From NCBI GenBank assembly GCA_963840745.1, contig CAWJAC010000006.1, positions 33,947 through 97,946 of the forward strand: a stretch of 64,000 nucleotides of DNA. The letters are read 5' to 3'. Below are positions 3,828-50,390 of the stretch, piece by piece. Source of the stretch: Candidatus Zambryskiibacteriota bacterium (GTDB taxonomy: Bacteria; Patescibacteriota; Minisyncoccia; Phycocordibacterales; WO2-35-19). The position numbers were made by a program, and so were the translations under genes. Under the pieces are notes generated by a model. That model did not search any database, was not told the DNA's origin, and saw only the letters and a program-made list of their open reading frames with translations. Position 1 is the first letter of the stretch. Each line of letters opens with the position of its first letter.

Positions 3828-5099
3828 ATGCTAGATATTAAGTTTATAAGAGAAAACGCTGAGCTGGTGGCCGAAGGAGCCAAAAAGAAACACATAGAAT
3901 TTGATGTGCAAAAACTTATAGAAGTTGACGATAAGAGAAAAGCTATAAGTTTAAAACTTGATTTAAGAGAAGAGAGCAAGCAGAACGAAGCAAGCCAAAA
4001 AATTCCTCAGACGGTCAGACACCGGAAGAAAAAGAGCATTAATAAAAAAGATGCATGCCTTTTAAAGAAGAGATGCAAAAACTGGAAGAAGAGCTTAAGG
4101 GGGTGATGATTGAATGGCAAAAATTGATGGTATGCGGTGCCTAACATTCCGGATGTTTCGGTACCCGAAGGAAGTGAGGATAAAGATAACAAAGAGGTTA
4201 AAGTATGGGGAAGTATTCCAAAATTTGATTTTAAGCCCAAAAGCCATATTGAAATTATGCAAAATTTGGATATGGTTGATCTGGAAAGGGGGACAAAGGT
4301 TGCCGGGTTTAGGGGATATTTTTTGAAAAACGACGGAGTGCTTCTATCATTTGCCATTTGGCAGCATGCTCTCAGTCATTTTTTGAAAAAAGGTTTTACG
4401 CCTATGATAGTGCCATCGCTTGTCCGCCGAGAACCCTTTGTTGGTTCCGGATATTTGCCGCAAGGGGAAGAAGATTTATACAAAACTCAAGATGGAGAAT
4501 ATCTCTCCGGCACAGCGGAGGTGGCAACCATGGCTTTTCATATGGATGAAATTTTGGACAAAAAAAGTTTGCCTAAAAAGTTTTTATCATTTTCCCCGTG
4601 TTTTAGAAGAGAAGCGGGCGCATACAGTAAAGATGTTAAAGGTCTGATCAGGGTCCATGAATTTTATAAAGTGGAGCAAGTTATTTTGTGTGAGGCCAGC
4701 CACGAAGAATCAGTTAAATACCATGAATTTTTGCATCGCAACACAGAAGAATTCATCGAAACTCTCGGTATTCCTTATCACACAGTAATCAATTGTGCCG
4801 GTGATCTCGGTTTGGGCCAAGTTAAAAAATATGACATTGAATTATGGGTGCCTCTTGAAGAAAAGTATCGTGAGATAGGTTCAACATCATATTTTCATGA
4901 TTTTCAAACACGCAGATTGGGAATCCGTTATAAAGACGATGATGGTAAAATGAAATATACTCACTCTCTCAATAGTACGGCCATTCCAACACCACGCATA
5001 CTTGTGTCCTTAATTGAAAACTATCAACAGGCTGATGGCTCCATAATCATTCCGGAAGTTTTGAGGCCTTATATGGGTGGAAAAAGCAAAATAGAATAA
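3828..5099 (+). CDS. serS: Seryl-tRNA synthetase, at least two frame changes between about 3990 and 4137 as assembled
   Basis: The N-terminal arm (MLDIKFIRENAELV...) loses sense after about 3990. KEEMQKLEEELKGVMIEWQKLMV is readable in a second frame. The class II core is in ORF 4137-5099 (FSPCFRREAG, GLIRVHEF). Confidence 0.85.
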
Positions 5100-5182: not shown

Positions 5183-5590
5183 ATGAAAATCAGCGAATAT
5201 ACAAAAGAATATACTGCTGGTAAACCGATCACATTTTACAACGTAATCATGGAGGCAAATGAACTAATAGTAGAAATTGTAAATATAAGATGGGATGGTA
5301 TGAAGGAAGAATTTGAAGATGTATTTCATTTCTTGCAGTTATGGTTATATTCGAAATTTGGAGTAGATGGGGAAATATGGAAAATTACAAAACATTCTGT
5401 AAAGAAATTTATGGACAGAAAACTGATTTGGAATAAGATTTATGTATTTGTTGGATTGTCAGAAAATATTTCAGGTTTTGTTGGAAACTACAAGAAGATA
5501 GAAAAAGTGGTAAACCATCTTCAAAAATTCGGGATAGACAGAACAAAAGCTGAGGAAGCTTATGGTAAAATTGTGGCAAATAAACAGTAA
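5183..5590 (+). CDS. Hypothetical protein, possibly MazG-like all-alpha NTP pyrophosphohydrolase fold
   Basis: 135-aa ORF; the acidic helix pattern ANELIVEIV...MKEEFEDVFHFLQLW is weakly MazG-like. No firm motif. Confidence 0.4.
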   Translation: MKISEYTKEYTAGKPITFYNVIMEANELIVEIVNIRWDGMKEEFEDVFHFLQLWLYSKFGVDGEIWKITKHSVKKFMDRKLIWNKIYVFVGLSENISGFVGNYKKIEKVVNHLQKFGIDRTKAEEAYGKIVANKQ

Positions 5591-5603
5591 GATCCCCAAT
5601 TTA

Positions 5604-5990
5604 ATGAATTCAAAATTTCTTTACAATAATAAAGTCTTGAAAGATCGCAGGAAGGAATTAAGAAATAACTCAACTGAAACGGAAAAGATTCTTTGGGATA
5701 ATTTGAAACACAGCAAGCTTGGAGGTTTGAAATTTGTGAGGCAATACAGTGCTGGGCCATATATTTTAGATTTTTATTGCCCGAAACTTAGATTGGCGAT
5801 AGAATTAGATGGTAGACAGCATGGTGAGATAGAAGCCGTTTTGTATGATAAAGATAGAGAAGATTATTTAAATACTGTGCATATAGAAACTATTAGATTT
5901 TGGAACAAAGAAATAATAAATGATATAAAAGGATCGCTTAATAGAATTTTAATTCAAGCTATGAAAATGGCGAACCCCCTCTTAAGATAA
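5604..5990 (+). CDS. DUF559 endonuclease-domain protein (Vsr-like fold)
   Basis: FVRQYSAGPYILDFYCPKLRLAIELDGRQH...DKDREDYL...IRFWNKEI matches the DUF559 pattern. Start chosen at MNSKF to avoid overlap with the upstream gene. Confidence 0.75.
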   Translation: MNSKFLYNNKVLKDRRKELRNNSTETEKILWDNLKHSKLGGLKFVRQYSAGPYILDFYCPKLRLAIELDGRQHGEIEAVLYDKDREDYLNTVHIETIRFWNKEIINDIKGSLNRILIQAMKMANPLLR

Positions 5991-9676: not shown

Positions 9677-10737
9677 ATGAATTTTTGGCAAAAAATGAAG
9701 AAACCCATTTTGTGTTTGGCGCCCATGGCCGATGTCACTGACGTGGCTTTTAGATTTATTATTGCTAAGTATTCGAAAGAATTGCAGAAGGTGCCCTTCT
9801 GCAATTATGTAACTTACACAGAATTTGTTTCGGCTGATGGGCTGGTGAGAGCGCCGGAGGCAGGTCGCAAGAAACTTTTGAAAGATTTGGAATATTCTGA
9901 AATTGAAAGACCTATTGTAGCTCAGTTTTTTACAAGCAAACCTGAAATGATGGAAAAGGCGGCGGCCTTGGCGGTTGAGCTTGGTTTTGACGGCATTGAT
10001 ATAAATATGGGCTGCCCAGATAAAAGTATTGAAAAGCAAAATGCCGGCGCGGCCTTAATGAAGAACTCTGAATTGGCTAGAGAAATAATTTTGGCGGCAA
10101 AACAGGGCGCCGGTAAATTACCGGTGTCGGTCAAGACTAGGGTTGGCTATAACAAAGATGAATTAGAAACATGGTTGCCAGAATTACTTGCTGAAAATCC
10201 GGCGGCGATAATTATTCATGCCCGCACTCGCAAAGAGATGTCTAAAGTGCCGGCTCAGTGGGCGCGCATAGCGCGGGCAGTTGAAATTCGTAATGATATA
10301 CAGAATTCAGAAAAATCAGAAAACATTGTTCCTGCGTCGGGTCTAAGGATAAGGCTCTTGAAACAATATTTTCTGATTTTTCTTTTCGAACTTTAATAAT
10401 AGGAAACGGTGATGTTGAAAATGTTGAAGATGCGATTAAAAAATGCGAAGAGAGCGGAGCCGATGGGGCAATGCTTGGTAGAGCAGTTTTTGGCAACCCG
10501 TGGTTATTTGCGGATTATCAGCCTACACTCGAAGAAAGGATTAAAGTTCTGTTGGAACATACCAAAACTTTTGAAGAAAAATTCAGCGGAGTAAAAAGTT
10601 TTGCTATTATGAAAAAGCATTTCAAAGAGTATTTGAAAGATTCTAACCTGAGAGACTTGAGATTTAAGCTCATGAAAGCCGAAAATTCTAAAGAAGTTGA
10701 GGAAATAATTTCAAATTTTGGGTTTCCAACTGAGTAG
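9677..10737 (+). CDS. dus: tRNA-dihydrouridine synthase, reading frame broken by an 80-nt hairpin insert
   Basis: ILCLAPMADVTD, GIDINMGCP, VKTRVG in ORF 9677-10396. IIGNGDVENVEDA...GADGAMLGRAVFGNPWLF is in a different frame (open from 10285). Removing 10310-10389 joins them in frame. Confidence 0.85.
10310..10382. other. Hairpin element copy 1: 21-bp stem (10310-10330 / 10362-10382) with a 31-nt conserved loop
   Basis: Arms gaaaaatcagaaaacattgtt / aacaatattttctgatttttc are complementary except one C/A, which is a G-U on the minus strand. The loop contains ctgcgtcgggtctaaggataaggctcttga. Confidence 0.75.
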
Positions 10738-11262
10738 CTTTCTTGTTTTTCTGTCTACAATGATGCCTATGAGTATCCAAATCAGCCCTACTATATATCC
10801 GGCTAAAACATCTGATAAATAATGCACTCCCAAATATAATCTACTCACTCCTACCATAATAATTAAAATAGATAGAAAAATAATAAAAGGATTTTTCAAA
10901 TGATGTTTGTCTGCACGCCAAATGGCATAAATCAGAAATCCGTATAATGCCATTGCTGCCGTGGCGTGGCCGCTTGGGAAAGATGGATCGGTTTCGAGAT
11001 AAAGCATATCTGCAAAAGGCGGCCTGCCGCGGTTCACGATGATTTTAAGTATGGCAGTTGTCACCGCGGCTCCTCCGACGGAAATAATAAGGGGAAGTAT
11101 TTTTATATAGTGCTTATGGATGTAAAAAGAAATTGCTGAAAGAAAAGTCAGACCGGAGACTATAAGATAACTACCTGAATATGTGATAACGAGCATTACA
11201 AAAGTAAGCCATTCAAATCTGTTATTTACAAAAAAATTTAAAACAGCTTGATCAATGTTCAT
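10711..11262 (-). CDS. PAP2-family phosphatase (undecaprenyl-diphosphatase-like)
   Basis: RGRPP...PSGHATAA...SRLYLGVHYLSDV are the three PAP2 motifs. Multiple TM segments. Confidence 0.8.
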   Translation of the reverse strand: MNIDQAVLNFFVNNRFEWLTFVMLVITYSGSYLIVSGLTFLSAISFYIHKHYIKILPLIISVGGAAVTTAILKIIVNRGRPPFADMLYLETDPSFPSGHATAAMALYGFLIYAIWRADKHHLKNPFIIFLSILIIMVGVSRLYLGVHYLSDVLAGYIVGLIWILIGIIVDRKTRKLLSWKPKI

Positions 11263-11390: not shown

Positions 11391-11428
11391 AAAGGGGTGG
11401 GTTAGTAATATGCTAATATAATAAAATT

Positions 11429-12161
11429 ATGGAAGGCATTATGCGCTGCAGCAGGTATTCATTTGGACCCAACCGCCTTCATTATTGCGGACCGGATGCC
11501 AATAGGGAACTGCGGGAACTCATAGAAAAAGACGGAGATAATTTTGGCCTCTCACATATTCTCAAACAATTTAAAACTCTTTTTCCTTACCTGCGTTATA
11601 TTGCTCACATAAATAATATAAAAGATCCTTTTAACAGTAGGGTAGTCGAGGCTTATTGGCTCGGCAATGATCTTTTGGAAAAAGTGGAACAAAGGACTCT
11701 TTTTGATTTTTTGATTGATGATTTGAAAGTTAAAGATAAACTTAGAAGCAAAGAATTCAATTGGCTGGAGGAAAAAATAAAAAATGGAGCAGTGCCTCAC
11801 CATTCATTTCATGTTTTAAATATCTGGCAGCAAGCCGGTCATAACGATTTGCTCGACGATCTAGTGAGGATGGATGAATGCCGGATTTCTTCAGGCATGG
11901 TGACTGAAGTGAAAGGACCTGAAATTAATGTATCAACAGAACCACTGGTTTATACGAATGGTAAATTTGCTTTGGGTGCTCGCCATTTCAAAAACTTTGA
12001 TTCGCCAATTAGAATCTGAGTACGATATCGAGCAAATCAAACCCGGGCAAATCGTATCCATCCACTGGAGCGTGCCGTGTGAAGTCATCACTCTCGCTCA
12101 AGCCTCGACTCTCCGCAAATATACTCTCCAAAACATCGCCTTCGCCAATCTCACTGTTTAA
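11429..12161 (+). CDS. Conserved hypothetical protein (DUF6390-like), one frame change near 11975-11985
   Basis: MRCSRYSFGPNRLHYCGPD...VVEAYWLGNDLL in ORF 11429-12019. It continues as ISKTLIRQLESEYDIEQIKPGQIVSIHWSVPCEVIT in ORF 11928-2161's frame (ORF 11928-12161). Family name given from memory. Confidence 0.5.
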
Positions 12162-12165
12162 AACT

Positions 12166-12210
12166 ACAATCCACAAAATCGCTTGGCAGATGTTTTTGTG
12201 AGTATATACT
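12166..12210 (+). promoter_or_regulatory. Island module copy A (partial): TTGGCA-16-TATACT promoter
   Basis: caatccacaaaatcgcttggcagatgtttttgtgagtatatact aligns with copy C (14009-14063). -35 at 12183-12188, -10 at 12205-12210. Confidence 0.6.
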
Positions 12211-12237
12211 TTATATGTAACTAAGAAAGAGACCCTT

Positions 12238-12702
12238 ATGCAGATACGTCTGCATTGGGGGCTCTTTCATTTTATCTGGAGAAATAATACAATTTATTGC
12301 TTAATGAATGAAGCTGAAATTATTTTATTAAACCGTCATTATCGCCGTGTTCGTTTTTATGTAAAACTTGAAAAGCTTGGATATCATCTGGTACTTAAAC
12401 CAGTCAAAACCTTTGACGACCCTGAGGGCAACCCAGTGCGTAAGGCAAATTGCGATGTTGATATGACACTTATGCTAGCCACAAAGAAAAATGATTTTGA
12501 CCGAGCTATCATTCTTTCGGGGGATGGTGATTTTCTGCCAGTTCTCAAATATTTGAAAGAGAGTGGAAAAGAGGTTTTGGTTTTGGCCAGAGGTCCGAGA
12601 ACCGCGAAGGAAATAAAACAATTTGCTGGGAATAAGTTTATGGACTTTGAATACTTACGGGAAAGGTTGAAACGAACTGACATAAGCGGACAGGAGATAT
12701 AA
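12238..12702 (+). pseudogene. NYN/LabA-like (PIN-like RNase fold) domain protein, N-terminally truncated
   Basis: KANCDVDMTLML...AIILSGDGDFLPVLKYLKESGKEVLVLA matches the NYN core. The N-terminal FIDGxN segment seen in the paralog at 14108-14631 is missing and replaced by module A plus a hairpin. Confidence 0.6.
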
Positions 12703-12807
12703 AAGCGAACGGCACCCATATAGGATGCCGTTCAGGTCTGATATGGAAAGTATATCAAACTGAAAATGAAAGTCAAATGAAGTATTGTGTATAAATGATG
12801 GTTTTCT

Positions 12808-12895
12808 TAACAAAATCATTTTCCACAGCAAAAACACGGCTAGAATAAGGGCTAAAATGACAATCCACAAAAAGACCCAAAATTGCTTTCAATAA
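12808..12895. repeat. Island module copy B (promoter part degenerate)
   Basis: cacagcaaaaacacggctagaataagggctaaaatgacaatccacaaaaag aligns with copies C and D. Confidence 0.7.
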
Positions 12896-12919
12896 AAAAT
12901 GACCGCAGAGAAACAAATC

Positions 12920-13093
12920 TCAGCGGCCGACTCTCCTTAGTGACAAGAGGAAAGCGAGAGTGAAGAACGCACCCATCAGTCCATACAATGGATAATGTGG
13001 TACGTCTCCGTCAATAAAAGCGTTTGATTTTAGCGTAGCCATCACGGCCATTATTGCTAAGACCAGAGACAAGACGGTTATCCTGGTTTTCAT
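12920..13093 (-). CDS. Small membrane protein (57 aa), below the ORF-track cutoff
   Basis: Own translation: MKTRITVLSLVLAIMAVMATLKSNAFIDGDVPHYPLYGLMGAFFTLAFLLSLRRVGR. GAGG lies 8 nt upstream of the ATG. Visibly GC-richer than its surroundings. Confidence 0.5.
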   Translation of the reverse strand: MKTRITVLSLVLAIMAVMATLKSNAFIDGDVPHYPLYGLMGAFFTLAFLLSLRRVGR

Positions 13094-13177
13094 ATGTCTT
13101 AACCTCTAATTTAGATAATAACCAAAATTATGGCTGTTGTACAGAATAAAATTCTTCTGCATTTATTGTCAAAAATT

Positions 13178-13576
13178 TTATATGTTTTCCAATATTACTT
13201 TTTCGTAATTTTTATTTATTCTATGATCTCCTTTGGGCACGATAATCATTTTTACATTTTTTTTGCATAATGGTTTGAATATTTTTTGCAAAAATTTTTC
13301 TTTTTCACCGATTATAAAAATTACTTGTTTAGCTTTGCATTTACCTAATGATTCAAATGGTGTCGGTGAACAAAGAATAAGTTTTTTTAGTTTTCTTTTC
13401 AGAGATATTTCAAGAGAAAAAACAGCTCCGAGAGAAAAACTAACAACCGTATCGCAGTTTTTTGATGATGTCGCTTTTCCCGTATTCCAATCAATATCAG
13501 CCACAATTAAATGCTTGGATAATGATTTATAATTTTCTTTTGTTTCTCCTAATCCTGGATAAAATATTGTTTTCAT
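13178..13576 (-). CDS. Small alpha/beta-hydrolase-like protein
   Basis: Start at MKTIFYPGLGE. Possible nucleophile elbow SFSLG and late GDH. The upstream part of ORF 13178-13672 overlaps the DUF397 gene and looks spurious. Confidence 0.45.
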   Translation of the reverse strand: MKTIFYPGLGETKENYKSLSKHLIVADIDWNTGKATSSKNCDTVVSFSLGAVFSLEISLKRKLKKLILCSPTPFESLGKCKAKQVIFIIGEKEKFLQKIFKPLCKKNVKMIIVPKGDHRINKNYEKVILENI

Positions 13577-13623
13577 AAATAAAAATAAATAGTGATGGGG
13601 AGCTCCGAGAACTCCCCATTGGA

Positions 13624-13824
13624 CTAGACATCGAACTCGCCCGCTTTGACGCCGCTGACGAACGCTTTCCACTCGGCTCGAGTGAAGAACGCCGTGGTTT
13701 TAGTCGGATCGTTGCTGTTGCGGACAGCTACGCCATTTGTCTTCACTGCCACAGCAACGCAGGTTTTGGGATTGTTTTTGGACCAAGACGAAACCCTGAA
13801 GTCCTGGTCTCGTACTTCAAACAT
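13624..13824 (-). CDS. DUF397 domain protein
   Basis: FRVSSWSKNNPKTCVAVAV...VAVRNSNDPTKTTAFFTRAEWKAFVSGVKAGEFD fits the DUF397 pattern typical of actinobacteria. GC-richer by eye. Strong SD (gaggaaaggtgg). Confidence 0.75.
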   Translation of the reverse strand: MFEVRDQDFRVSSWSKNNPKTCVAVAVKTNGVAVRNSNDPTKTTAFFTRAEWKAFVSGVKAGEFDV

Positions 13825-13954
13825 ATTTTTCCACCTTTCCTCAAGGAATGTCTAGCTAGAAACACTCCTATCCAAAGTACAAGTTGCCTTGTCTGATTTA
13901 AATATACGCCTTGGATTATTGTTGTCAATTTTTAAAATCAAAAGGTGAACAAGA

Positions 13955-14063
13955 CGAACAATTTTATTTTCAACAGCAAAAATACGGCTAAGATAATGGA
14001 TAAAATGGTAATCCACAGGAAAACATCAAAAATCGCTTGACAGAATTTTTAGTGCATATATAC
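13955..14063 (+). promoter_or_regulatory. Island module copy C (complete): conserved block plus TTGACA-16-TATACT promoter
   Basis: -35 at 14036-14041, -10 at 14058-14063. The upstream block aacagcaaaaatacggctaagataatggataaaatggtaatccaca is shared with copies B and D. Confidence 0.65.
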
Positions 14064-14107
14064 TATAGGAGTACTATTACGAAAAAGGAACCAAACGGTG
14101 TTAGTGC

Positions 14108-14631
14108 CTAAGGTCCCTTTTTCTTTTTATGCAGATATTCTATTTTTGATTTTATATCAACGGTGTCTAAATAATCAAAAAATCTTACGGTTAGGTGTTT
14201 ATACAAAGAAGAGGCTGATTTTTTATCGGGGAAAAGTATTTTAATAAATAAATTTTTACCCATCAAATAATCAACCAGTTTTCTATAATCTCCATCACCA
14301 GACACCAAAACAATTTTATCAAAATCTTTGTTATCAACAATATTTTTCATCACTTCAAAAACAATATCCGTATCAACATTTCCTTTTTTCTCCGTTATCA
14401 AATTTAAACTATGATATTTAAATATAATAACAAAACCAGCTTGTTGCAGGTTTTTGTATAAATCGTTTTGTGTTTCGGATGTAAACCCTAGAAAATAATA
14501 TGCTTCTCTGACTTTATACTTATCTTTCAAATAAATCCTAAATTTTTTAAAATCCACTTTCCAATTATTTTGAGTTGTTCCAAAGGTAGGTTTTGCCCGT
14601 CTATAAAGGCGAGATTATTTTCTTTTTTCAT
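14108..14631 (-). CDS. NYN/LabA-like domain protein, one frame change near 14575-14590
   Basis: ATG at 14631 gives MKKENNLAFIDGQNL. A frame switch then gives TFGTTQNNWKVDFKKFRIYL...GNVDTDIVFEV...IVLVSGDGDYRKLVDYL. Confidence 0.7.
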
Positions 14632-14761
14632 GATTTAAAGTATATCAAATTGTTGACAAAAATATTTTAAGTAATACCATTAAATACAGACAGAGTTTGT
14701 AAAATCTGTACTTTGGATAGGAGAGCCACTCAGAGCTTTCCTTGAGGAAAGGTGGAAAAGT

Positions 14762-14896
14762 ATGTATATACCATCAGGCGAAATTCGGGAACCCGATGTT
14801 CTCTGTACCGTCTATCGCGCCGGGGACGACGACTCGGTTTCTTCCGATGACTATGGTGAAGACAGCGATGCCGACAGCGGCGAACAGGATTGCTAA
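14762..14896 (+). CDS. Candidate 44-aa acidic peptide
   Basis: MYIPSGEIREPDVLCTVYRAGDDDSVSSDDYGEDSDADSGEQDC. It has the same leader, SD and ATG context as the DUF397 gene. Followed by the hairpin aagacccctc...gaggggtctt. An overlapping minus-strand ORF is an alternative reading. Confidence 0.35.
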   Translation: MYIPSGEIREPDVLCTVYRAGDDDSVSSDDYGEDSDADSGEQDC

Positions 14897-14919
14897 CAGC
14901 ACACCCAAGACCCCTCGCA

Positions 14920-15511
14920 TTTAGAGGGGTCTTAATTTGTCTCTAAAAAATTTTAGTATATTTTCGTAAGGTTCAGAAAGCTTGTAAGCCTTTTTGTAAT
15001 CTTCGCTGTATTTTATATCAGCAACTATTTTAAGCATATCAGGTTCATCTTCAAAAACTTTACGAAGTACGGCGAATACCAATATATGAGAGTTAACCGT
15101 ATCGCTATCTCCTTTTACAAGTAAAAAATCGTTATTTATTTTAAATAAATCTTTATTGGAAGCTAAAAGTCTGTGAGTAAGTTCGTGGGTGAGAAGTGAC
15201 TATAAAATTTTTAGGACCTTTGTGAGAACTAATTATTAATGGATTAGACATATCGCGATTAACTCCAGCAACTGCATAAACATTAATATCTTCCTTAAAG
15301 GACAAGTCCAGAGCAGAACAAATTCCATTTAGAACTTTCTCTTCATATTTAGCCCATATATCTTTATAAGCCTGTATCCTTTTCTCCATTTTTTCTTTAT
15401 CTGGAGGAACCCACCTTTCCATCCAGAACTTTTTACGTCAGGACTATTTTTTACATAAAAGTTAAAAAATGGTTCTAAAAGTTTGCCGTGTTGTATTATA
15501 ATCTTTACCAT
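14920..15511 (-). pseudogene. HExxH (HELTH) metallopeptidase-like gene with two frame changes
   Basis: MVKIIIQHGKLLEPFF... then FWMERWVPPDKEKMEKRIQ... then LTHELTHRLLASNKDL...KFFRDKLRPL, read in three frames. Confidence 0.5.
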
Positions 15512-15574
15512 CTTTATATTATAACAGAAATTTTTATATTTTAAAAATAGGGAACACGTTTTGAATAAAAAACA

Positions 15575-15650
15575 GAACAAAATTATTTTGATAGTCTAAA
15601 ATACGGCTAAGATAATGGATAAAATGGCAATCCACAAAAAGGGTTCAAAA
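15575..15650. repeat. Island module copy D, left part (separated from its promoter part by the IS)
   Basis: ctaaaatacggctaagataatggataaaatggcaatccacaaaaag. The promoter part resumes at 16673 (cttgacag...). Confidence 0.7.
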
Positions 15651-16672
15651 TGTTTTAGGCACACACATATGGCGGATTGATTAACTGATAATTTCTTAGG
15701 AATTCGTTGGGCGTTTTGCCGTTTAATCCGCAATGTTCTAGATCATTGTAATACATCATTCCACACTTTCATTTAATTTGCAAATCTGTTGAAGTTTTTG
15801 AATTTGTATTTTTCGTAGAATTTTTCTTGATCTTCCCTATGACTTCTCTCCACAGTTCCGTTTTGAGCCGGTTTTCCCGGATCAATCAGATAATGGAGAA
15901 TATTGTGTTTGGCAGAAAATTCATCAAGGGAATGGAGGTTTCTTGAAGAAAGATCGGATCGTCTGTATGACCGAAATATTAGTTTGTGAAAATCTGACCA
16001 TTGTCTGTTTTAATGGCTTGGATTTTGTATTTGAATATTCTCCATCACATTTTCAGAAAAACAACCGAATGAAAATTTGATTTCTTCGTCGAATATACTG
16101 CCAGATGTCTCCAGCGAGAAGCGGTATCAATAGCGGTATATTGGTAATATCTTTTGTTTTCAACACGTCCTGGAACGTATTTAACATCAATTTCGACTAA
16201 TTCTCCCGGCTTGTCTCTAGTGCTTTGATGTATTTGTATGAAATCTTTCTTGACTCGGTATTTGTGTACCAAATTTTCTTTTTCAAAATCTTGCCGATAG
16301 TTCGTAGGTGAATTTAAAGTTCCTTCTTTTTTTAATTGCCAGTGTATTTTGAGAGCACACTTTTTGGTTTTCTTTCTGATCAAATGACTCTTTCCTTGAT
16401 CCATATCGGAGTCTCTCTGGTCTGAGTCTTGGGTTCAGTTGATTTGGGTTCCAAGTGACCAATCTCCATGCTTCTTGCACTTAGCCAGCCATCTCTCGAG
16501 ACTGCGTTTGCTGTGTGGACAGACCTTTACCACATCCACTAATCTTAACTGTCTGTATGCGATGGGGAGCACCCATCTCAATCTCTCTTCTTTGATTGTT
16601 TTTGCCATATGTATTGCCATTGCCCCATTCTAGGGGAAAACCGCCAAAAGAGTGTACACATTACCTAAAACA
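15651..16672 (-). mobile_element. IS481-like insertion sequence, decayed
   Basis: Terminal inverted repeats TGTTTTAGG at 15651-15659 and its reverse complement at 16664-16672. HTH fragment in ORF 16435-16620. rve core DVKYVPG...YYQYTAIDTASRW in ORF 16045-16404. Further fragments down to about 15660 carry stops and frame changes. Confidence 0.75.
15660..16620 (-). pseudogene. IS481-family DDE transposase, multiple frameshifts and stops
   Basis: As above. The C-terminal part (KTDNGQ..., YNDLEHCGLNGKTP) is readable only across broken frames. Confidence 0.7.
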
Positions 16673-16673
16673 C

Positions 16674-16701
16674 TTGACAGTATTTGTGGGTTTGATATAT
16701 T
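16674..16701 (+). promoter_or_regulatory. TTGACA-16-TATATT promoter (right part of module D) for the downstream secreted-protein gene
   Basis: cttgacagtatttgtgggtttgatatatt aligns with the module C promoter. AAGGAG SD lies 5 nt before the ATG at 16763. Confidence 0.6.
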
Positions 16702-16762
16702 TGTGGACGGAGAGAAATAAACGGATCTTTGAATTTTGAATTTTTGGTTTCAAGGAGCAGTT

Positions 16763-17674: not shown

Positions 17675-17835
17675 CTTTCTCGCGCCAAACGGCGCTCGCT
17701 AACCAAAACCTCGATAGTATGGATTGTCTACGGACAGTTCATACCGTCGAGGTTTTTTCTTTATCCACTTTTTTTGTTGACCTCCAACCCGAACACTTAT
17801 ATAATATTTGTATATTTAATTTTATAAAATAATTT

Positions 17836-18369: not shown

Positions 18370-18387
18370 AAGTAACTTATTTTTGCC

Positions 18388-20872: not shown

Positions 20873-20877
20873 ACTTC

Positions 20878-26467: not shown

Positions 26468-28470
26468 AAAAATTTTTTAATCCTAAATCGGTCGCAGTTA
26501 TCGGAGCAAGTTCTGATAAAAATAAAGTTGGCTTTGCTTTGATGGCGAATCTGCTTGCCGGCAAGAAGAGGGAAATTTATCCTATTACTCTGGGCGAAAA
26601 AGAAATACTCGGCATTCCTGCTTTTGTCTCGGTTTTAGATGTATCTGAAAAAATTGATTTGGCTATTATTGCCGTCCGGGCCGATATTGTGCCTCAAGTG
26701 TTGTCCGACTGTGGTAAAAAGGAAATACCAAATATCATTGTTGTCTCGTCAGGTTTTAAAGAAATAGGTCCGGCAGGCAAAAAGCTTGAAAATCAAATTG
26801 CAGCCATAGCCAAGCAAAACAACATGACAATTTTAGGGCCAAATTGTCTTGGAGTTATTGATACAAAAAATGATTTGAATGCCTCCTTTTCTCCGCAAAA
26901 ACCACTTGCCGGAAAAATCGCTCTTTTGTCTCAATCGGGCGCTTTGGGCACGGCAATGCTCGACTGGGCTATCGGCGAAGGGGTCGGTTTTTCAAAATTT
27001 GTAAGTTTGGGCAATGAGGCACAGCTGACAGAAATAGATTTCCTTAAGTTTTTGAAAGATGACGACGATACGGATTCCATTTTAATTTATTTGGAAAAAG
27101 TTAGCGATGGTCCGGAATTAATGCGTCTTTTAAAATCAATAACACCAAAAAAGCCGGTTGTCATACTCAAAGCCGGAGTGAGCGATTATGGAGCTTCTGC
27201 CATTATGTCCCACACTGGCTCTTTAGCGCCGGAATCCAGAGTTTTTACTGCTGCTTGTCAGCAAGCCGGTGCCATTATGGTGCCTTCGCTCCGCAAGTTT
27301 TTTAATATTTCCAAACTCTTATCACTTGGAGTCAAGGTAAACGCGCCCATTTCGCGCCTCATAGTTTTGACCAATGGAGGCGGACCATCCGTCATTGCTG
27401 CCGATGAGATCGGACTTTCCCGTTCCTTGTCTTTGGTTTCAATTCATGAAGATGTCAAAGAGAAATTAAGAGGGGTTCTACCGAGCATGGCGGCGGTCGG
27501 CAATCCTGTCGATATAATAGGCGATGCCTTGGCGGAACGATACGAAAAGGCTCTCGATATTTTATGCGGTGTCAAAGATGCAGACGGCATTATCGTAATG
27601 CTCACTCCGCAAATGATGACCGAGGCGGAAGCGACGGCTCATTTGCTTTCAAAATATAAAAATAAGAAAAAAATATTTCCAGTATTTATTGGCGGTCCAT
27701 CTATACAAGCTGGCCGTAGTGACTTGCTGCAGTCTGGCCTTGTTAATTTTGCTTTTTCAAAAGATGTGGTTTATGGGTTGGACAGCTTGGCAAACTATGC
27801 TCCAAAAATTTTGCTGTCAAAGACGGCCTTTGTCTTTGACAGTGTCTCTCAGATGCCATTTGAAGATATGACTAAAATTTTAGGTGAATATAATATTTCA
27901 ATAAAAGGAAAATTCATAAACAGAAAAGAAGATTTAGAAAACGCTCTCAGAGAATGCGGAGAAGGTCCTTATGCTATGAAAGCCATATCAAATAATATAG
28001 TTCACAAAATTGATGTTGGTGCTGTCAAGTTAAATATTTCAAATTTGGAAGAAGCTAATGTTGTTTGGGAAGAAATGTGGCAAAAATTTGTGCAGCTGGA
28101 TGGCATATTGATTCAAAAAATGGCTGAGGGCAAGGAAGTTATAATTGGTATGAAAAGAGATGCAACATTTGGCCCAACAATTCTTTTTGGTTTGGGTGGC
28201 ATTTTGGCAGAAGCTATAAAGGATACCGCTTTGCGAATTGCTCCTATAGAAAAAGAAGAAGCCTTTAAAATGATGCAAGAAATAAAAGGCATCAAAATAT
28301 TACAAGGTATGCGTGGCGAGCCGCCCGTAAATTTTGATTTGCTTGCTGATATTATCATAAATCTCTCTCGCCTCGCTCTTGACCATCCCGAAATAAAAGA
28401 AATAGACCTCAATCCCGTCATAGCCGCCGAATCTTCTGCGGCTATTGTTGATGTTAGATTAATGATTTAA
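26455..28470 (+). CDS. ADP-forming acetyl-CoA synthetase (fused alpha/beta; CoA-binding plus ATP-grasp)
   Basis: 671 aa. FNPKSVAVIGAS, SQSGALG, HTGSLA, then the C-terminal ATP-grasp part. Confidence 0.8.
   Translation: MENLEKFFNPKSVAVIGASSDKNKVGFALMANLLAGKKREIYPITLGEKEILGIPAFVSVLDVSEKIDLAIIAVRADIVPQVLSDCGKKEIPNIIVVSSGFKEIGPAGKKLENQIAAIAKQNNMTILGPNCLGVIDTKNDLNASFSPQKPLAGKIALLSQSGALGTAMLDWAIGEGVGFSKFVSLGNEAQLTEIDFLKFLKDDDDTDSILIYLEKVSDGPELMRLLKSITPKKPVVILKAGVSDYGASAIMSHTGSLAPESRVFTAACQQAGAIMVPSLRKFFNISKLLSLGVKVNAPISRLIVLTNGGGPSVIAADEIGLSRSLSLVSIHEDVKEKLRGVLPSMAAVGNPVDIIGDALAERYEKALDILCGVKDADGIIVMLTPQMMTEAEATAHLLSKYKNKKKIFPVFIGGPSIQAGRSDLLQSGLVNFAFSKDVVYGLDSLANYAPKILLSKTAFVFDSVSQMPFEDMTKILGEYNISIKGKFINRKEDLENALRECGEGPYAMKAISNNIVHKIDVGAVKLNISNLEEANVVWEEMWQKFVQLDGILIQKMAEGKEVIIGMKRDATFGPTILFGLGGILAEAIKDTALRIAPIEKEEAFKMMQEIKGIKILQGMRGEPPVNFDLLADIIINLSRLALDHPEIKEIDLNPVIAAESSAAIVDVRLMI
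27814..27842. repeat. REP-like palindrome inside the acetyl-CoA synthetase ORF: ctgtcaaagac ggccttt gtctttgacag
   Basis: Perfect 11-bp arms. Core TGTCAAAG shared with the RAYT-flanking REPs. Translated in frame as LSKTAFVFDS. Confidence 0.75.
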
Positions 28471-29698
28471 GGTCAAAGTTTGGATCGGACAATTCTGATT
28501 CGTGGCCGGAGACTTTGAAGTTGGATTCAATCAGTTTGTTTACGATAGACATATCTTGTGTGCGGTTGATAAATGTGGCGCCTATGATTTCGTCATTGCT
28601 ATCCACAATAATCCGCGCGAACCCGCCTTCGCCAAGCTTCGGCGAGGCAAGGCCGCGTTTTATTACTTTTTTTGAAGAGTCAACTCTCACGTCTCCAGAC
28701 ATAGCAATATTCAAACCAAAGCCCATGGCCGTGTAAAAAGAAACCATCCTAAATTGATTTATTTGGCCAAGCATATTTAAGGCAGCAGTACGGCCTTGCA
28801 TCTGGGCATTAACCCAATTGCCAAGCTGGACTCTTTCGCCCAACACAAGATCATTAAATTCAGCTACATCGCCAGCGGCATAAATATTCGGAATATTTGT
28901 TGCTAAATACTCGTTGGCTAAAATACCTTTGTTTGTTTCAATGCCGGCTTGCTTTAACCAATCCAAATGGCAAATTAATCCTATGCCGACGAGAGCCAAC
29001 TGGCAGGGAATCTGAGTGCTATCTTTTAAAACAACACCTTCAATTTTTTGGTCTCCCAAAATTTCAGAAACTTCAGCTTCACGCAAAATTTTAATACCAC
29101 CATTTTCCATGCCGGATTCAATCATTTTGGCAGACTCTTCATCCAAAAGTGGATACCAATAATATGGCTCGCGCATGATAAGAGTCACAGGAAGTCCGGC
29201 CAGACGCATCATCTCGCACATTTCAAAACTGACAAATCCTGAGCCGATAGCGATGGCTTGTTTTGCTGTTTTAATATTTTCCATAAGCACTTCAGCCTCA
29301 CTCAAGTCGCGCAAGTAACAAATACCTTTTTTGTCAGATCCGGGAATTTGCCAAGGTCTGGCTTCGCCACCGGTAGCGAGTAAAAGCTTTTCGTATTTTA
29401 AGATTTTACTGTTATTAAGTTCAATAGTTTTCAATTTTATATCTAACTTATTAGCCACTACGCCTTCAATAAATTCAATTTTGTTTTCTTCATACCATTC
29501 TTTTTTGCGCAGCCAAACGGAATCAAATGGAATTTTACCTAAAAAGAAATTTGGTTTGGAGAGCATAATGCGTGAATAAAAACGCGGCTCATCGGAAACT
29601 ATGGCGATACTTCCGTCTTTATCATTTTGGCGCAAAGTTTCAGCGGCCGTCGTACCGGCCACTCCACCGCCTATTATGAGATATTTATATTCACTCAT
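28454..29698 (-). CDS. FAD/NAD(P)-dependent pyridine nucleotide-disulfide oxidoreductase
   Basis: YLIIGGGVAGTTAAE and AIGSGFVSFE dinucleotide folds, AAGDVAEF. Confidence 0.75.
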   Translation of the reverse strand: MSEYKYLIIGGGVAGTTAAETLRQNDKDGSIAIVSDEPRFYSRIMLSKPNFFLGKIPFDSVWLRKKEWYEENKIEFIEGVVANKLDIKLKTIELNNSKILKYEKLLLATGGEARPWQIPGSDKKGICYLRDLSEAEVLMENIKTAKQAIAIGSGFVSFEMCEMMRLAGLPVTLIMREPYYWYPLLDEESAKMIESGMENGGIKILREAEVSEILGDQKIEGVVLKDSTQIPCQLALVGIGLICHLDWLKQAGIETNKGILANEYLATNIPNIYAAGDVAEFNDLVLGERVQLGNWVNAQMQGRTAALNMLGQINQFRMVSFYTAMGFGLNIAMSGDVRVDSSKKVIKRGLASPKLGEGGFARIIVDSNDEIIGATFINRTQDMSIVNKLIESNFKVSGHESELSDPNFDLKSLI

Positions 29699-29713
29699 AT
29701 TTTGATTATAACA

Positions 29714-29787
29714 AAAAACAACAGAAACATCATTTCTGCGTTAGGTCGCAAGGATAAGGCTCTTGAAATGATATTTCTGTTGTTTTT
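29714..29787. other. Hairpin element copy 2: 23-bp stem (29714-29736 / 29765-29787) with a 28-nt conserved loop
   Basis: aaaaacaacagaaacatcatttc / gaaatgatatttctgttgttttt with one C/A (a G-U on the minus strand). Loop tgcgttaggtcgcaaggataaggctctt. Intergenic, within a minus-strand operon. Confidence 0.75.
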
Positions 29788-29794
29788 CTCCTCT

Positions 29795-30055
29795 CTATTT
29801 GGGAAAAACTTGCACGCCTGATTTATCAAACAAAAGAATAGCTTTGGTTGGGCAGGATTCGGCTGACATAAGAAGGGCGGCATCATCTGCCGCGTCCGCA
29901 TGGGTTACTACTACTTTGTTTTCACCATCAAGTTCGTAAGTTTCGCCGGAAACAGCGATGCAAGAAGCGGCGCCGATGCACAAACCTCTATCAATCACAA
30001 TTTTACCAATATTTGATCCTTCTTTGTTGCGAGCGTATTCTTTTAAATCTGCCAT
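29795..30055 (-). CDS. Small ferredoxin
   Basis: 86 aa; DRGLCIGAASC...AESCP cluster ligands. Confidence 0.7.
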   Translation of the reverse strand: MADLKEYARNKEGSNIGKIVIDRGLCIGAASCIAVSGETYELDGENKVVVTHADAADDAALLMSAESCPTKAILLFDKSGVQVFPK

Positions 30056-32729: not shown

Positions 32730-32831
32730 GTTTAAAATATACTTTTTTCAAAATATTGCAACAACGTTAATTTTTGGTACAATAATCAAATCATTGAAAA
32801 TAAGTATTATAAGTGAGATAAAGTGGCTGGC

Positions 32832-32906: not shown

Positions 32907-33032
32907 GCCACTTTATCAAAAGCAAGAGTTAATTCAGGGAATTTAATTTAAATCAAAATTAATTTGCAACAATAGAAATATTATGGTTAAATCACATCAG
33001 GTCTGATCTTTGACCTAGAAAGGATGTGGTGT

Positions 33033-48464: not shown

Positions 48465-50390
48465 TCACAATAAATTATTGGGGTCTACTTTTAGTTCAAA
48501 GTGGGGAGGGAGAGATTTTAAAATTGCTAGCAAATTTTGATCTACCCATTTTTCTTTAGGCAATTTTATGACAGCATTAACGGCTGATTGCTCACCTCGT
48601 TTTTCGTGAGTAGAGGGAAAGATAGCTGGGTTGTAATCTTTAAAAATATTTTTTAAATTTTCAGATTCTTTAGCCACGAAATTTCTAGTACCCCTGACTG
48701 TTATTTTTATAAAAATACCGAATGGCGGATAGCCCAAAACTTCTCGGTCCTCTATTTCTTTTTTATAAAATTCTATAAGGTTGCCACTTACAGCAAATTC
48801 CACAGTAGGATCATTTGGATTGCGAGTTTGTATTAAAAAATTTTCTTTGGCTATATTTTTGGTCTGTACAATTAGGCGAAATATTTTTTCTCTGATGCAA
48901 AAGTCTGGGATAGAGAAAAGGGAATCAAAAGAAGCTATAGCAGTAGTCGCCACTTTTTTTCGGAGGAATGAGAAAGCCATTTCAGTGCCCAAAAGCACTC
49001 CGCCTCTGTTTTCATAAAACTTTTCCGCAGTGGCAGATGCTTTAGTATCGGTTGGAGTGATGTCTTTGTGGATTTCAAAAAGATTTATGTTTGGAATGCT
49101 TTTCCTTATCTCATCAGCTACTCGGTCTAGCCCCGCGCCAAAGGCCGCCAGTTTCCAGCTGCCGCAATTTTGGCAGACCTCGGCTGCATCGCGCATCTCT
49201 CCGCATTGATGGCATTTAAAAGCGCCACCGTCCCTTGTCTTATATAAAATCATAGGCGACGAGCAGTTGTTGCATTTGACTTGCTCGCCGCAATCGCGGC
49301 AGACAGTGACAGAAGAGAGACCTTTCCTAGCGGCAAAAATAAACATATTAGAGCTTTTTTCCGTGTTTTCTTTTATCATATTCAGCAATTCCGGAGATAA
49401 AGTTTTAAATTCTTTTCCTTGCCCTGAACTTGTCGAAGGGTCTTTCTTGCTTGATTCTCTCAAATCCACTACCTCTGTTTTAACTTCAGACGGCAGTCTC
49501 CATTTGACGCTTTCAAACTCTCCGACTTCTCCTTGTTTGTATCTATACAAAGTTTCTGTTCGGAGGAATGAATCCCCAATTACTGCGCGTATATTTTTTT
49601 TGTTCGCCAAAATCTCGGCAAAAAATCGCAGATCCATGAACGGCCGTGATAAAGTTTTCCAACCGTTTTCATTTTCTTTGTCTATAATCACAGTGCCAAA
49701 ATCATTTCTTGGCAAAAATAGCCATTTAGCGGTGGCGATGACGAGTATCGGATGCGGAGTCAAACAAGCTTTTTTCCATTCCTCTTTCAGTTCTTTTTTG
49801 TTCATTTCATTATGGAAAGAGCAGACGAATAATTCTATGCCGCGTTCCAAGTTTTCTTTGATGAGTTTGACGTCTTCATTTTGCGGCAGGCAGAGAAAGA
49901 CCGATCTTTTTTTAGCAAACTCTTCTCTGATAAGCGATCTGTAGAGAGACAGTCTTTCTTCGTCCGGAGCCTGAAGCACAGTCACTTCGTTTTTGGTGTT
50001 GTCAAAGACGGTCTTTGACAGTTGTCCCGAAAAGACTGTCTTTGACAACACGCTTGGATTTTCCAAAACAAAAGAAGGAATTAATTGGGACAAAACGCTT
50101 CCTTGGTTGGTAGCAAAATATTCTGCCGTTTCTTTGACTACCTCCAAAAATTCTTTTTGCAAAAATGGTTTGGCTGTGACGGCTGAAATTTTTTTGAGCT
50201 GGAAATCGGCTGACTTTATTTCAGATTTTGCTTCTGTGACATCTCGGCTCTCTAAAACCAGTGCTGATACTGCTTTGCTTCTAATATTTATTTTGACGAG
50301 AGAACCTGGTTCCAAATATTTTGGTCCGAAGTAGGAGAGTGATTCCTTATTCAACCCCTTTGAAAATGGGAGACATTCGATAATAAACAT
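48465..50390 (-). CDS. priA: Primosomal protein N' (PriA helicase)
   Basis: 641 aa. Cys-rich zinc region CRDCGEQVKCNNCSSPM...CHQCG...CQNCGS and helicase-like core. Confidence 0.8.
   Translation of the reverse strand: MFIIECLPFSKGLNKESLSYFGPKYLEPGSLVKINIRSKAVSALVLESRDVTEAKSEIKSADFQLKKISAVTAKPFLQKEFLEVVKETAEYFATNQGSVLSQLIPSFVLENPSVLSKTVFSGQLSKTVFDNTKNEVTVLQAPDEERLSLYRSLIREEFAKKRSVFLCLPQNEDVKLIKENLERGIELFVCSFHNEMNKKELKEEWKKACLTPHPILVIATAKWLFLPRNDFGTVIIDKENENGWKTLSRPFMDLRFFAEILANKKNIRAVIGDSFLRTETLYRYKQGEVGEFESVKWRLPSEVKTEVVDLRESSKKDPSTSSGQGKEFKTLSPELLNMIKENTEKSSNMFIFAARKGLSSVTVCRDCGEQVKCNNCSSPMILYKTRDGGAFKCHQCGEMRDAAEVCQNCGSWKLAAFGAGLDRVADEIRKSIPNINLFEIHKDITPTDTKASATAEKFYENRGGVLLGTEMAFSFLRKKVATTAIASFDSLFSIPDFCIREKIFRLIVQTKNIAKENFLIQTRNPNDPTVEFAVSGNLIEFYKKEIEDREVLGYPPFGIFIKITVRGTRNFVAKESENLKNIFKDYNPAIFPSTHEKRGEQSAVNAVIKLPKEKWVDQNLLAILKSLPPHFELKVDPNNLL
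49996..50051. repeat. Nested REP-like palindromes inside priA
   Basis: gtgttgtcaaagac (49996-50009) pairs perfectly with gtctttgacaacac (50038-50051). Inner tgtcaaagac / gtctttgaca at 50000-50020. Translated as LSKTVFSGQLSKTVFDNT. Confidence 0.75.

What the first reader, a model, noticed from the sequence alone, without database searches (positions are those of the whole stretch)
10310..10389. An 80-nt hairpin-containing insert breaks the tRNA-dihydrouridine synthase reading frame
**Seen in the sequence**
- The dus ORF reads ...AVEIRNDIQNS and then enters the sequence gaaaaatcag...ttttcga, which contains a 21-bp hairpin.
- It terminates at 10396.
- The conserved continuation TLIIGNGDVENVEDA...GRAVFGNPWLF is in another frame.
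- Deleting exactly 10310-10389 (80 nt) gives the in-frame junction ...RNDIQNS|TLIIGNGDV..., which matches the usual spacing before the NGD motif.

**Inference**
The insert is either a small mobile or structured element that has inactivated dus, or an intervening sequence removed at the RNA level. It is too small for a group I or group II intron.

Unlike the other disrupted genes in this window, this is not a 1-nt indel. Sequencing error does not explain it.
Basis: partly seen in the sequence, partly recalled or inferred. Interest (0 to 1): 0.7.

Follow-up and report, generated by a model that had tools for sequence, protein, structure and literature searches.

The report
In-frame palindromic repeat element in dus
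The 80-base hairpin inside the dus gene is one copy of an apparently undescribed family of about 81-base palindromic repeats in Paceibacteria (candidate phyla radiation) that normally sit between genes or are read through in frame as a 27-residue loop, and the frame is broken here only because this copy lacks one base.

Summary
Window 10310-10389 is an extra 80 nt in dus, with 22-nt inverted arms (10309-10330 and 10362-10383). Removing it restores a full 326-residue Dus.

It is neither an intron nor a one-off. It belongs to a multi-copy family found in Nomura-, Zambryski- and Paceibacteria MAGs:
- I found 43 distinct copies, plus 2 with diverged centres.
- A second copy lies in this window at 29712-29789, between two genes.
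- Each copy has a roughly 30-nt conserved centre, CTGCGTTAGGTCNNAAGGATAAGGCTCTTG.
- The centre is flanked by 20-28 bp arms that differ between copies but stay complementary (22 of 24 pairs show changes on both sides).

Most copies sit in short spacers between distinct genes. Seven copies at three sites (Dus, DNA polymerase I, RseP protease) lie inside ORFs. In six of them the element is read through in the one stop-free frame (...ALGHKDKAL...); the window's dus copy is the exception.

The nearest relative contig (L020) has the same element at the same dus site, but 81 nt long and in frame. The window copy lacks one A (GGTC^TAAGG) and has three substitutions in the centre.

So the frameshift is a 1-nt deletion inside the element. 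It is either real or an assembly error. SerRS, a hydrogenase and other genes in this window are frameshifted too.

The closest analogue is the Rickettsia palindromic elements. How the family spreads is unknown.

The parts
9677..10309 (+). dus (tRNA-dihydrouridine synthase), 5' part up to the insert. The frame runs on through the insert to a stop at 10394-10396.
   Evidence: ORF 9677..10396. PF01207 homologs at up to 79% BLASTP identity (91% in alignment A2).
10310..10389 (+). The boundaries can slide to 10307-10386. It is copy 1 of the palindromic element family.
   Evidence: Removal restores a 326-residue Dus. Empty site in L021 and 81-nt in-frame version in L020. Covariance model R1 scores 81.5 bits at 10305-10387.
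10309..10330 (+). Left arm of the hairpin (A-rich).
10331..10361 (+). Family centre. Here it reads CCTGCGTCGGGTC^TAAGGATAAGGCTCTTGA. One A is missing between 10343 and 10344, and 10331, 10338 and 10339 differ from L020 and from the family consensus.
10362..10383 (+). Right arm of the hairpin (T-rich).
10390..10737 (+). dus 3' part (TLIIGNGD... to the stop), in the frame reached only if the insert is 81 nt or is removed.
29712..29789 (+). Copy 2 of the same family. It is intergenic, between two minus-strand genes (an FAD-dependent oxidoreductase-type ORF by its motifs at 28454..29698; an 86-aa Cys-rich ORF at 29795..30055). Arms are 29714-29736 and 29765-29787.
   Evidence: R1 scores 87.6 bits.

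Best explanation
The insert is a copy of a non-coding, palindromic repeat element family of Paceibacteria-class candidate phyla radiation bacteria. The usual unit is about 81 nt: a roughly 30-nt conserved centre flanked by 20-28 bp complementary arms, A-rich on the left and T-rich on the right.

Shown:
- Copies lie mostly in the short spacers between distinct genes.
- A minority lie inside genes. At those three sites the element is in the only orientation and frame that is stop-free.

Inferred: such a copy is transcribed and translated with its host gene and adds about 27 residues (...SEKSENIVSALGHKDKALETIFSDFS...) to a surface loop. This is the same behaviour as Rickettsia palindromic elements.

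In dus the element sits between a helix and the strand TLIIG that precedes the NGD motif. The allele that carries the element appears to have moved between lineages by homologous recombination of its flanks (inferred).

In this window the copy has lost one base in its centre. The frame therefore shifts and Dus would end at 239 residues. That single-base difference is either a real, recent inactivating mutation of a dispensable gene or an error of an indel-prone assembly. I cannot tell which.

How new copies arise is not shown. Candidates are a trans-acting enzyme that recognises the centre on a hairpin, or recombination.
For: Family and anatomy:
- The 19-mer centre occurs twice in the window, 0.07 expected.
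- Exact-pattern scans gave 15 true copies in Nomura-, Zambryski- and Paceibacteria MAGs and 49 metagenome loci. That is 43 distinct copies.
- A covariance model found 2 further copies with diverged centres.
- 22 of 24 arm pairs show changes on both sides. 82.8% of cells are paired against 62.8% in shuffles, and pairing drops to 45-65% when partners are slid by 1-3 columns.

In-frame use:
- L020 dus carries the element at the same site, 81 nt long, with the ORF intact (370 aa).
- DNA polymerase I (L028, L060) and RseP-type protease (L043, L059, L016) carry it in the same frame.
- Only that frame of the centre is stop-free on this strand (read directly from the sequence).
- An AlphaFold2 model of P0001 has mean pLDDT 89. 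The insert (residues 228-255) has pLDDT about 57 and lies between helix 212-227 and strand 257-261.

Intergenic copies are truly intergenic. Their flanking ORFs are different complete genes, recognised by eye from their sequences: L10 and L7/L12, MurE and MurD, IF2 and RbfA, FtsZ and TrxB.

Cause of the frame break: the only differences from L020 in 10190-10470 are 3 substitutions and 1 deletion, all in the centre.

Recombination: identity to L020 is about 80-85% in the background but 100% in blocks around the element.
Against: - No target-site duplication, no conserved terminal repeat and no candidate transposase was found, so mobility is inferred only from presence/absence and copy number.
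- Arms vary while the centre is conserved. This is unlike typical MITEs and could instead point to a functional RNA or a protein-binding site.
- Conservation of 20 of the 30 centre bases is partly imposed by my search pattern. Only the 2 copies found with the model are unbiased, and their centres are about 90% conserved.
- Translation of the insert is inferred from open frames, not observed.
- The window copy itself is not in frame.
Confidence: 0.8

Rival explanations
1. The hairpin is an intervening sequence removed from the mRNA. For example, a double-strand-specific RNase could cut at the base of the 22-bp stem and a ligase could rejoin the ends. Both the 80-nt and the 81-nt versions would then give the same mature dus mRNA, and the frame of the insert would not matter.
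For: Removing either the 80 nt (window) or the 81 nt (L020) gives the same in-frame junction ...IQNS|TLII.... A long perfect stem is a plausible RNase III substrate (general knowledge). This reading would explain the window copy without invoking an error or a pseudogene.
Against: - At all three independent ORF sites, in six orthologs, the element is in the one stop-free frame and orientation. Excision would not require this; the chance is about (1/3)^3 or less.
- No other copy splits a gene. Flanking ORFs of the other copies are distinct complete genes.
- Most copies are intergenic and occur in both orientations.
- No Rfam intron or ribozyme family matches.
- The stem has no bulge-helix-bulge motif.
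Confidence: 0.05
2. The family is primarily a functional structured RNA or a protein-binding DNA site, for example a processing, stability or termination hairpin in operon spacers with a recognised apical loop. The copies inside ORFs would be incidental.
For: - The centre is conserved across genera while the arms co-vary.
- Inside ORFs, pairing is kept at the cost of amino-acid changes. Compare L028 and L060: T/V against S/E.
- Copies sit tightly in operon spacers.
- 16 copies are sense to co-directional neighbours against about 6 antisense.
- A-tract, stem, T-tract is the shape of a two-way terminator. Core-less hairpins of the same shape exist at 17701-17760.
Against: - Copies occur in all four gene-orientation contexts, including divergent spacers.
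- Folding energies show no consistent strand preference.
- Presence varies between orthologous sites.
- Copies inside essential ORFs and inside operons such as rplJ-rplL argue against strong termination.
- Arm complementarity can also be maintained without selection, by hairpin-templated repair (established for quasi-palindromes).

This rival does not exclude the main explanation.
Confidence: 0.12
3. The ribosome recodes across the defect, by a programmed -1 frameshift or by bypassing stimulated by the hairpin, so full-length Dus is still made from the 80-nt copy.
For: A stable hairpin lies just downstream of the point where a -1 shift would be needed. The -1 frame is open from about 10300.
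Against: - The 0 frame has no X XXY YYZ slippery heptamer between 10298 and 10345.
- There are no matched take-off and landing codons (TCA against TCG).
- There is no stop directly after a take-off site.

These three points are read directly. The sister contig needs no recoding.
Confidence: 0.02
4. The whole insert is an assembly chimera or artefact.
For: The contig has many frameshifts.
Against: An independent JGI assembly (L020) has the same element at the same site. 40 or more further copies occur in unrelated assemblies.
Confidence: 0.01

Closest known systems
Rickettsia palindromic elements (RPEs; Ogata et al. 2000, 2002, as summarised in PMC10969869)
   Same: Short palindromic repeats found between genes and also inside unrelated housekeeping ORFs. 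They are in frame, add a peptide segment without destroying the protein, occur in a reduced-genome host-dependent lineage, and have an unknown means of spread.
   Different: - I neither tested for nor expect sequence similarity.
- This family is about 81 nt against about 100-150 nt.
- It has a nearly invariant centre with family-specific, co-varying arms.
- Copy number per genome appears low. The most I saw in one MAG was four exact-centre copies.
- The host is Patescibacteria.
Bacterial MITEs (Correia, ERIC, Coxiella QMITE and others)
   Same: Small non-autonomous inverted-repeat elements. Presence varies between orthologous sites. Intragenic in-frame fusions occur occasionally (PMC10969869, PMC5896051).
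   Different: I found no target-site duplication, no conserved terminal inverted repeat shared by all copies, and no parent insertion sequence.
REP elements mobilised by RAYT transposases, and other hairpin sites recognised by HUH enzymes
   Same: A hairpin that is recognised by shape plus a short conserved motif would explain a conserved centre with variable arms.
   Different: REPs are 20-40 bp with GTAG or CGTC tags (PMC3733652). Neither feature is present here. I did not look for RAYT or HUH genes.
Coding palindromes in Nematomorpha mitochondrial genes (PMC6649704)
   Same: Long inverted repeats embedded in protein-coding sequence and translated.
   Different: Those are long (up to 284 bp) perfect repeats in an organelle, with no conserved centre and no intergenic family.
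rRNA intervening sequences and archaeal bulge-helix-bulge introns
   Same: Small hairpin inserts within genes.
   Different: Those are excised from RNA. Here the in-frame, stop-free state of the ORF copies argues for translation, and the defining motifs are absent.

Membership tests
RPE-type in-frame palindromic repeat (functional class) | Repeated in the genome and in related genomes | tested here: met
   2 copies in the window. 4 in MAG CALQYS01, 3 in JBBTQO01. 43 distinct copies overall.
RPE-type in-frame palindromic repeat (functional class) | Palindromic, hairpin-forming unit | tested here: met
   Covariation in 22 of 24 pairs.
RPE-type in-frame palindromic repeat (functional class) | Inserted in frame in unrelated ORFs without breaking them | tested here: met
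   Met for the family: Dus (L020), Pol I (L028, L060), RseP (L043, L059, L016). Not met for the window copy itself (80 nt, frameshift).
RPE-type in-frame palindromic repeat (functional class) | Insert lies in a surface-exposed segment compatible with the fold | tested here: met
   AlphaFold2 model of P0001: the barrel is confident and the insert (228-255) is a low-confidence excursion between a helix and a strand. This is a prediction only.
RPE-type in-frame palindromic repeat (functional class) | Sequence homology to the ten Rickettsia RPE families | not tested
   No RPE sequences were available in the tools. The claim is 'works like', not membership by descent.
MITE | Terminal inverted repeats conserved among copies | tested here: not met
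   Arms are inverted repeats within a copy but differ strongly between copies. Only the centre is shared.
MITE | Target-site duplication | tested here: inconclusive
   No consistent direct repeat at the edges of the palindromes. The only filled/empty pair (window and L020 against L021) is too diverged at the junction.
MITE | Related autonomous element with a transposase | not tested
No such gene was seen next to the copies I examined.
REP/RAYT | 20-40 bp palindrome with a GTAG or CGTC tag | tested here: not met
   Units are 75-95 nt and the edges are A- or T-runs.
Group I / group II intron or known ribozyme | Match to the family's covariance model | tested here: not met
   At gathering threshold Rfam finds only tRNA-Asn in the window. 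The permissive search finds only generic hairpin (miRNA-precursor) hits far below threshold.
Archaeal-type bulge-helix-bulge intron | Two 3-nt bulges separated by a 4-bp helix at the junctions | tested here: not met
   The predicted stem is continuous with a single mismatch. The junctions lie at or outside the stem base.
Translational bypass (T4 gene 60 type) or -1 frameshift site | Matched take-off and landing codons with an adjacent stop, or a slippery heptamer | tested here: not met
   Read directly from the sequence.

The most novel reading that the evidence does not exclude
Paceibacteria carry several unrelated families of coding palindromes: this one plus at least three others, seen in frame in Dus, ComEC-like and TatD proteins of relatives. 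These families repeatedly colonise the same surface loops of housekeeping proteins. This family's invariant centre on a freely co-varying stem would mark a structure-specific means of spread or a nucleic-acid-level function not yet described for bacterial repeats. A rarer but bolder reading is that the hairpins are cut out of the mRNA.
Probability: 0.3. Interest if true: 0.7.

Novelty: new member of a known kind. Interest (0 to 1): 0.5.

Why it matters
- **Gene calls.** An apparent broken gene or possible intron turns out to be an element that is normally in frame. This corrects how such dus calls in these genomes should be read: one base decides between a pseudogene and an intact gene.
- **Selfish DNA in coding sequence.** Candidate phyla radiation bacteria, like Rickettsia, tolerate selfish palindromes inside essential proteins. 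That gives a second, independent system for asking how such elements spread and how they shape protein loops in reduced genomes.
- **A possible handle on mechanism.** The conserved centre with co-varying arms gives a concrete lead for finding the factor that recognises it.
- **Annotation.** These elements inflate and fragment protein predictions in these MAGs.

Tried and rejected
- **Rfam.** Searched at gathering and at permissive thresholds. Nothing specific.
- **Strand of action.** An early count of A.C against G.U mismatches in 17 copies hinted at the minus strand. Folding all 43 copies on both strands gave no consistent preference: the minus strand was more stable in only 17 of 43. I dropped the idea.
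- **Protein-level census.** A doubled peptide query then found only 5 word-sharing candidates and no scoring hit. So in-frame copies of this centre are rare among predicted proteins, but the search gave no list.
- **Same strain elsewhere.** I looked for this strain in other assemblies to check the missing base. Its own proteins (P0106, PAP2, the 133-aa neighbour) are not in the contig index, and the cluster look-up gave no name.
- **Viral contigs.** No copy.
- **Target-site duplications.** None evident.
- **Other split genes.** I checked whether 'intergenic' copies actually split genes, which would favour excision. They do not.
- **Resemblance to the signal recognition particle RNA apical motif.** Considered and rejected, because the element is multi-copy and Rfam gives no hit.
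- **Literature.** Searches for palindromic or MITE elements in candidate phyla radiation / Patescibacteria found nothing relevant in the held library.

Full report
**1. The observation**

The sequence is as described.
- The dus ORF (9677..10396) reads ...AVEIRNDIQNS and then 28 unrelated residues to a stop.
- The conserved continuation TLIIGNGDV...GRAVFGNPWLF... is in another frame and runs to 10737.
- Joining 9677-10309 to 10390-10737 gives 981 nt, an uninterrupted 326-residue Dus.
- Its best database relatives are Patescibacteria Dus proteins of family PF01207, at up to 79% BLASTP identity.
- The insert contains 22-nt inverted arms (10309-10330 and 10362-10383, one mismatch) around 31 nt.
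- Both strands fold better than shuffled sequence (z = -3.7 and -5.6).
- An ortholog with an empty site, L021, reads IQSK|TLIIGNGD and aligns with a clean gap.

**2. It is a member of a repeat family**

A second hairpin of the same size lies at 29714-29787. It sits between two minus-strand genes.
- Its arms differ from those in dus.
- Its centre is nearly the same as in dus. The 19-mer AAGGATAAGGCTCTTGAAA occurs exactly twice in the window, with 0.07 expected.

Scanning public genomes for GGTC-N(1,2)-AAGGATAAGGCTCTTG gave 19 loci.
- 15 are hairpin elements in MAGs named Nomurabacteria, Zambryskibacteria, Paceibacteria or Patescibacteria, with up to four per MAG.
- 4 are chance hits in other phyla, with no hairpin.

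The metagenome scan gave 49 more loci, and viral contigs gave none. After removing duplicates there are 43 distinct copies.

Anatomy:
- The centre is CTGCGTTAGGTCNNAAGGATAAGGCTCTTG.
- The 8 bases of the centre that my pattern did not fix are also nearly invariant.
- The arms are 20-28 bp, A-rich on the left and T-rich on the right, and specific to each lineage.

Arm pairing is maintained by double changes.
- 22 of 24 pairs show a change on both sides.
- 82.8% of cells are paired, against 62.8% after shuffling and 45-65% when partners are slid by 1-3 columns.
- An irregularity recurs about 9-10 bp from the centre. It is a C.A mismatch or a bulged C.

A covariance model built from the 43 copies (R1) gave three results.
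- It finds only the two copies in the window.
- In the flanks of other loci it finds two more copies with centres about 90% conserved.
- It also finds a related hairpin with a larger, GC-rich centre that contains GGTCCATAAGGAC.

Caveat: part of the centre's apparent invariance is imposed by the search pattern.

Rfam has no matching family.

**3. Where the copies sit**

Most copies fill short spacers between genes, often within 0-20 nt of both neighbours. The neighbours are different, complete genes, which I recognised by eye from their sequences. Examples are L25 and a hydrolase, MurE and MurD, FtsZ and thioredoxin reductase, L11 and dCMP deaminase, S15 and a NYN protein, L10 and L7/L12, and IF2 and RbfA. 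So no other copy splits a gene.

| Context of the copy | Count |
|---|---|
| Sense to co-directional neighbours | 16 |
| Antisense to co-directional neighbours | about 6 |
| Divergent spacer | 5 |
| Convergent spacer | 2 |

Seven copies at three independent sites are inside ORFs:
- Dus (window, L020)
- the linker of DNA polymerase I (L028, L060)
- an RseP-type M50 protease (L043, L059, L016)

Apart from the window copy, the element is read through in the same frame at all these sites, giving ...(S/P)ALGHKDKAL(E/G).... On that strand this is the only frame of the centre without a stop. The other two contain TAG or TAA.

Between orthologs the arms have changed with compensation even when this changes amino acids. 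In L028 the residues are T and V. In L060 they are S and E. So pairing, not the peptide, is what is kept.

**4. Why the frame is broken here**

The closest relative contig is L020 (JGI Ga0334820_011405), which has the same ClpB-Dus-PAP2 gene order. It carries the same element at the same dus site, but 81 nt long. Its Dus (P0001, 370 aa) is intact and reads ...IQNSEKSENIVSALGHKDKALETIFSDFSFRTLIIGNGD.

Over 10190-10470 the two sequences are identical except in the centre, where TTTCTGCGTTAGGTCATAAGG in L020 reads TTCCTGCGTCGGGTC-TAAGG in the window. That is three transitions and one missing A. The break is therefore a 1-nt deletion within an insert that is otherwise in frame.

Two readings remain.
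- **Assembly error.** Compared with syntenic L071 and L072, several genes in this window are frameshifted or carry in-frame stops:
  - seryl-tRNA synthetase, with an out-of-frame stretch at about 4000-4135;
  - DUF6390, at about 11980;
  - the NiFe hydrogenase large subunit, with at least 3 shifts;
  - the PFOR beta subunit, at about 26.3 kb;
  - two HlyD-like genes.

  Several of these sites adjoin A5-A6 runs.
- **Real variant.** The missing base is not in a homopolymer and is accompanied by substitutions. An unrelated intergenic copy, L035, shares the shorter GGTC-TAAGG and the GTC change. This suggests a natural sub-variant, possibly copied in by gene conversion.

I cannot decide between these without reads.

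**5. Structural context**

An AlphaFold2 model of P0001 has mean pLDDT 89 and pTM 0.88.
- The TIM barrel is modelled with high confidence.
- The insert (residues 228-255) is a low-confidence excursion of pLDDT about 57, drawn as two short helices.
- It lies between helix 212-227 and strand 257-261, the TLIIG strand that precedes NGD.

This fits a tolerated surface-loop insertion. It is a prediction only.

**6. Spread**

- Identity between the window and L020 is about 80-85% over clpB and most of dus. It is 100% in blocks at 10190-10470 (around the element), 10570-10760 and 10960-11160.
- This mosaic indicates recent homologous exchange between lineages. The allele that carries the element seems to have travelled that way (inferred).
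- I found no target duplication, no conserved termini and no associated enzyme. The primary means of copying is unknown.
- The architecture of a conserved centre on arms of any complementary sequence would suit a factor that recognises a hairpin by shape plus loop sequence, as with HUH enzymes or structure-specific recombination sites. It would equally suit an RNA-level role. Hairpin-templated repair could also keep the arms complementary without selection.

**7. Comparison with known systems**

The behaviour matches Rickettsia palindromic elements and the occasional in-frame MITE fusions reviewed in PMC10969869. Coding palindromes are also known in Coxiella and in hairworm mitochondria.

It fails the tests for:
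- a classical MITE (no shared terminal repeats, no duplication seen);
- REP/RAYT (wrong size and no tags);
- introns and ribozymes (no Rfam match);
- bulge-helix-bulge introns;
- bypass or frameshift sites.

Searches of the held literature found no description of such elements in candidate phyla radiation bacteria. That library is incomplete.

**8. A wider pattern seen on the way**

Other Dus orthologs carry different in-frame, strongly self-complementary inserts in this same loop and in three other loops. One of them (...QKCTDIFLLENSSCSPQSGSQGIS...) recurs with 100% identity over 73 nt inside a ComEC-like ORF of another contig, and in further loci. Another peptide, KG(V/T)FWDxGISKxPFDTS, occurs in both a Dus and a TatD. 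So several families of coding palindromes coexist in these genomes.

**9. Verdict**

It is a small repeated structured element. It is wrong on the key point: the element is normally in frame, and the break is a single missing base that may be an assembly error.
- The family is a new member of the known class of in-frame palindromic repeats, in a phylum where I found none described.
- Interest is moderate.

Noticed in passing
window 3828-5099 (about 3990-4140): Seryl-tRNA synthetase has an out-of-frame stretch bounded by two compensating shifts, with in-frame stops near 4104. In the correct frame the stretch reads ...LEEELKGVMIEWQKLM.... An essential gene broken like this points to indel errors in the assembly.
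   Followed up: partly
window 11423-12158; 21663-22969; 26309-26461; 37605-38250; 40889-42365: DUF6390, the NiFe hydrogenase large subunit (at least 3 shifts), the PFOR beta subunit and two HlyD-like genes are each split across frames relative to syntenic L071 and L072. Several shift sites adjoin A5-A6 runs.
   Followed up: partly
window 32817-32917: tRNA-Asn (32832-32906, CCA encoded) is enclosed by a perfect 22-nt inverted repeat (32817-32838 and 32896-32917). The repeat extends the acceptor stem by 15 bp of leader-trailer pairing.
   Followed up: no
window 49996-50051 (inside the PriA-like ORF 48465..50390, minus strand): A 21-bp-arm palindrome with a 14-nt loop lies in frame inside the ORF and encodes ...LSKTVFSGQLSKTVF.... 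It may be another coding palindrome.
   Followed up: no
window 17701-17760: A 24-bp-stem, 4-nt-loop hairpin with an A-run before it and a T-run after it lies between two plus-strand genes. It has the same overall shape as the element but lacks the conserved centre.
   Followed up: no
window 5183-5990: About 900 bp not present between serS and the next gene in L071 and L072. It holds two overlapping ORFs, the second a DUF559 / Vsr-like endonuclease domain. It looks like a small inserted selfish gene, possibly frameshifted.
   Followed up: no
window 12160-20875: About 8.7 kb lies between DUF6390 and the next syntenic gene and is absent at this position in L071 and L072. Long ORFs are sparse between 12.7 and 16.7 kb.
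   Followed up: no
L071:8703-8815; L030:2035-2107; L005:4535-4599; L024:1514-1572; L027:8442-8480: A second multi-copy element family, translated as ...QKCTDIFLLENSSCSPQSGSQGIS.... It is in frame in Dus and in a ComEC-like ORF, and is 100% identical over 73 nt between unrelated contigs.
   Followed up: partly
L072:8118-8188 and L072:8724-8852: Two further in-frame self-complementary inserts in a Zambryskibacteria dus. One is a perfect 29-bp-arm hairpin (-46 kcal/mol over the 87 nt folded). The other is a GC-rich structured insert (-68 kcal/mol over the 147 nt folded) at the same loop as the window's element.
   Followed up: partly
L001:2816-2918: A hairpin with 26-bp perfect arms and a larger GC-rich centre that contains GGTCCATAAGGAC. 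This resembles the GGTCATAAGGAT of the family centre and may be a sister family.
   Followed up: no
window 10190-11160 compared with L020: Mosaic identity: blocks of 97-100% within a background of about 80-85%. This indicates recent homologous recombination between lineages across dus and the PAP2 gene.
   Followed up: partly
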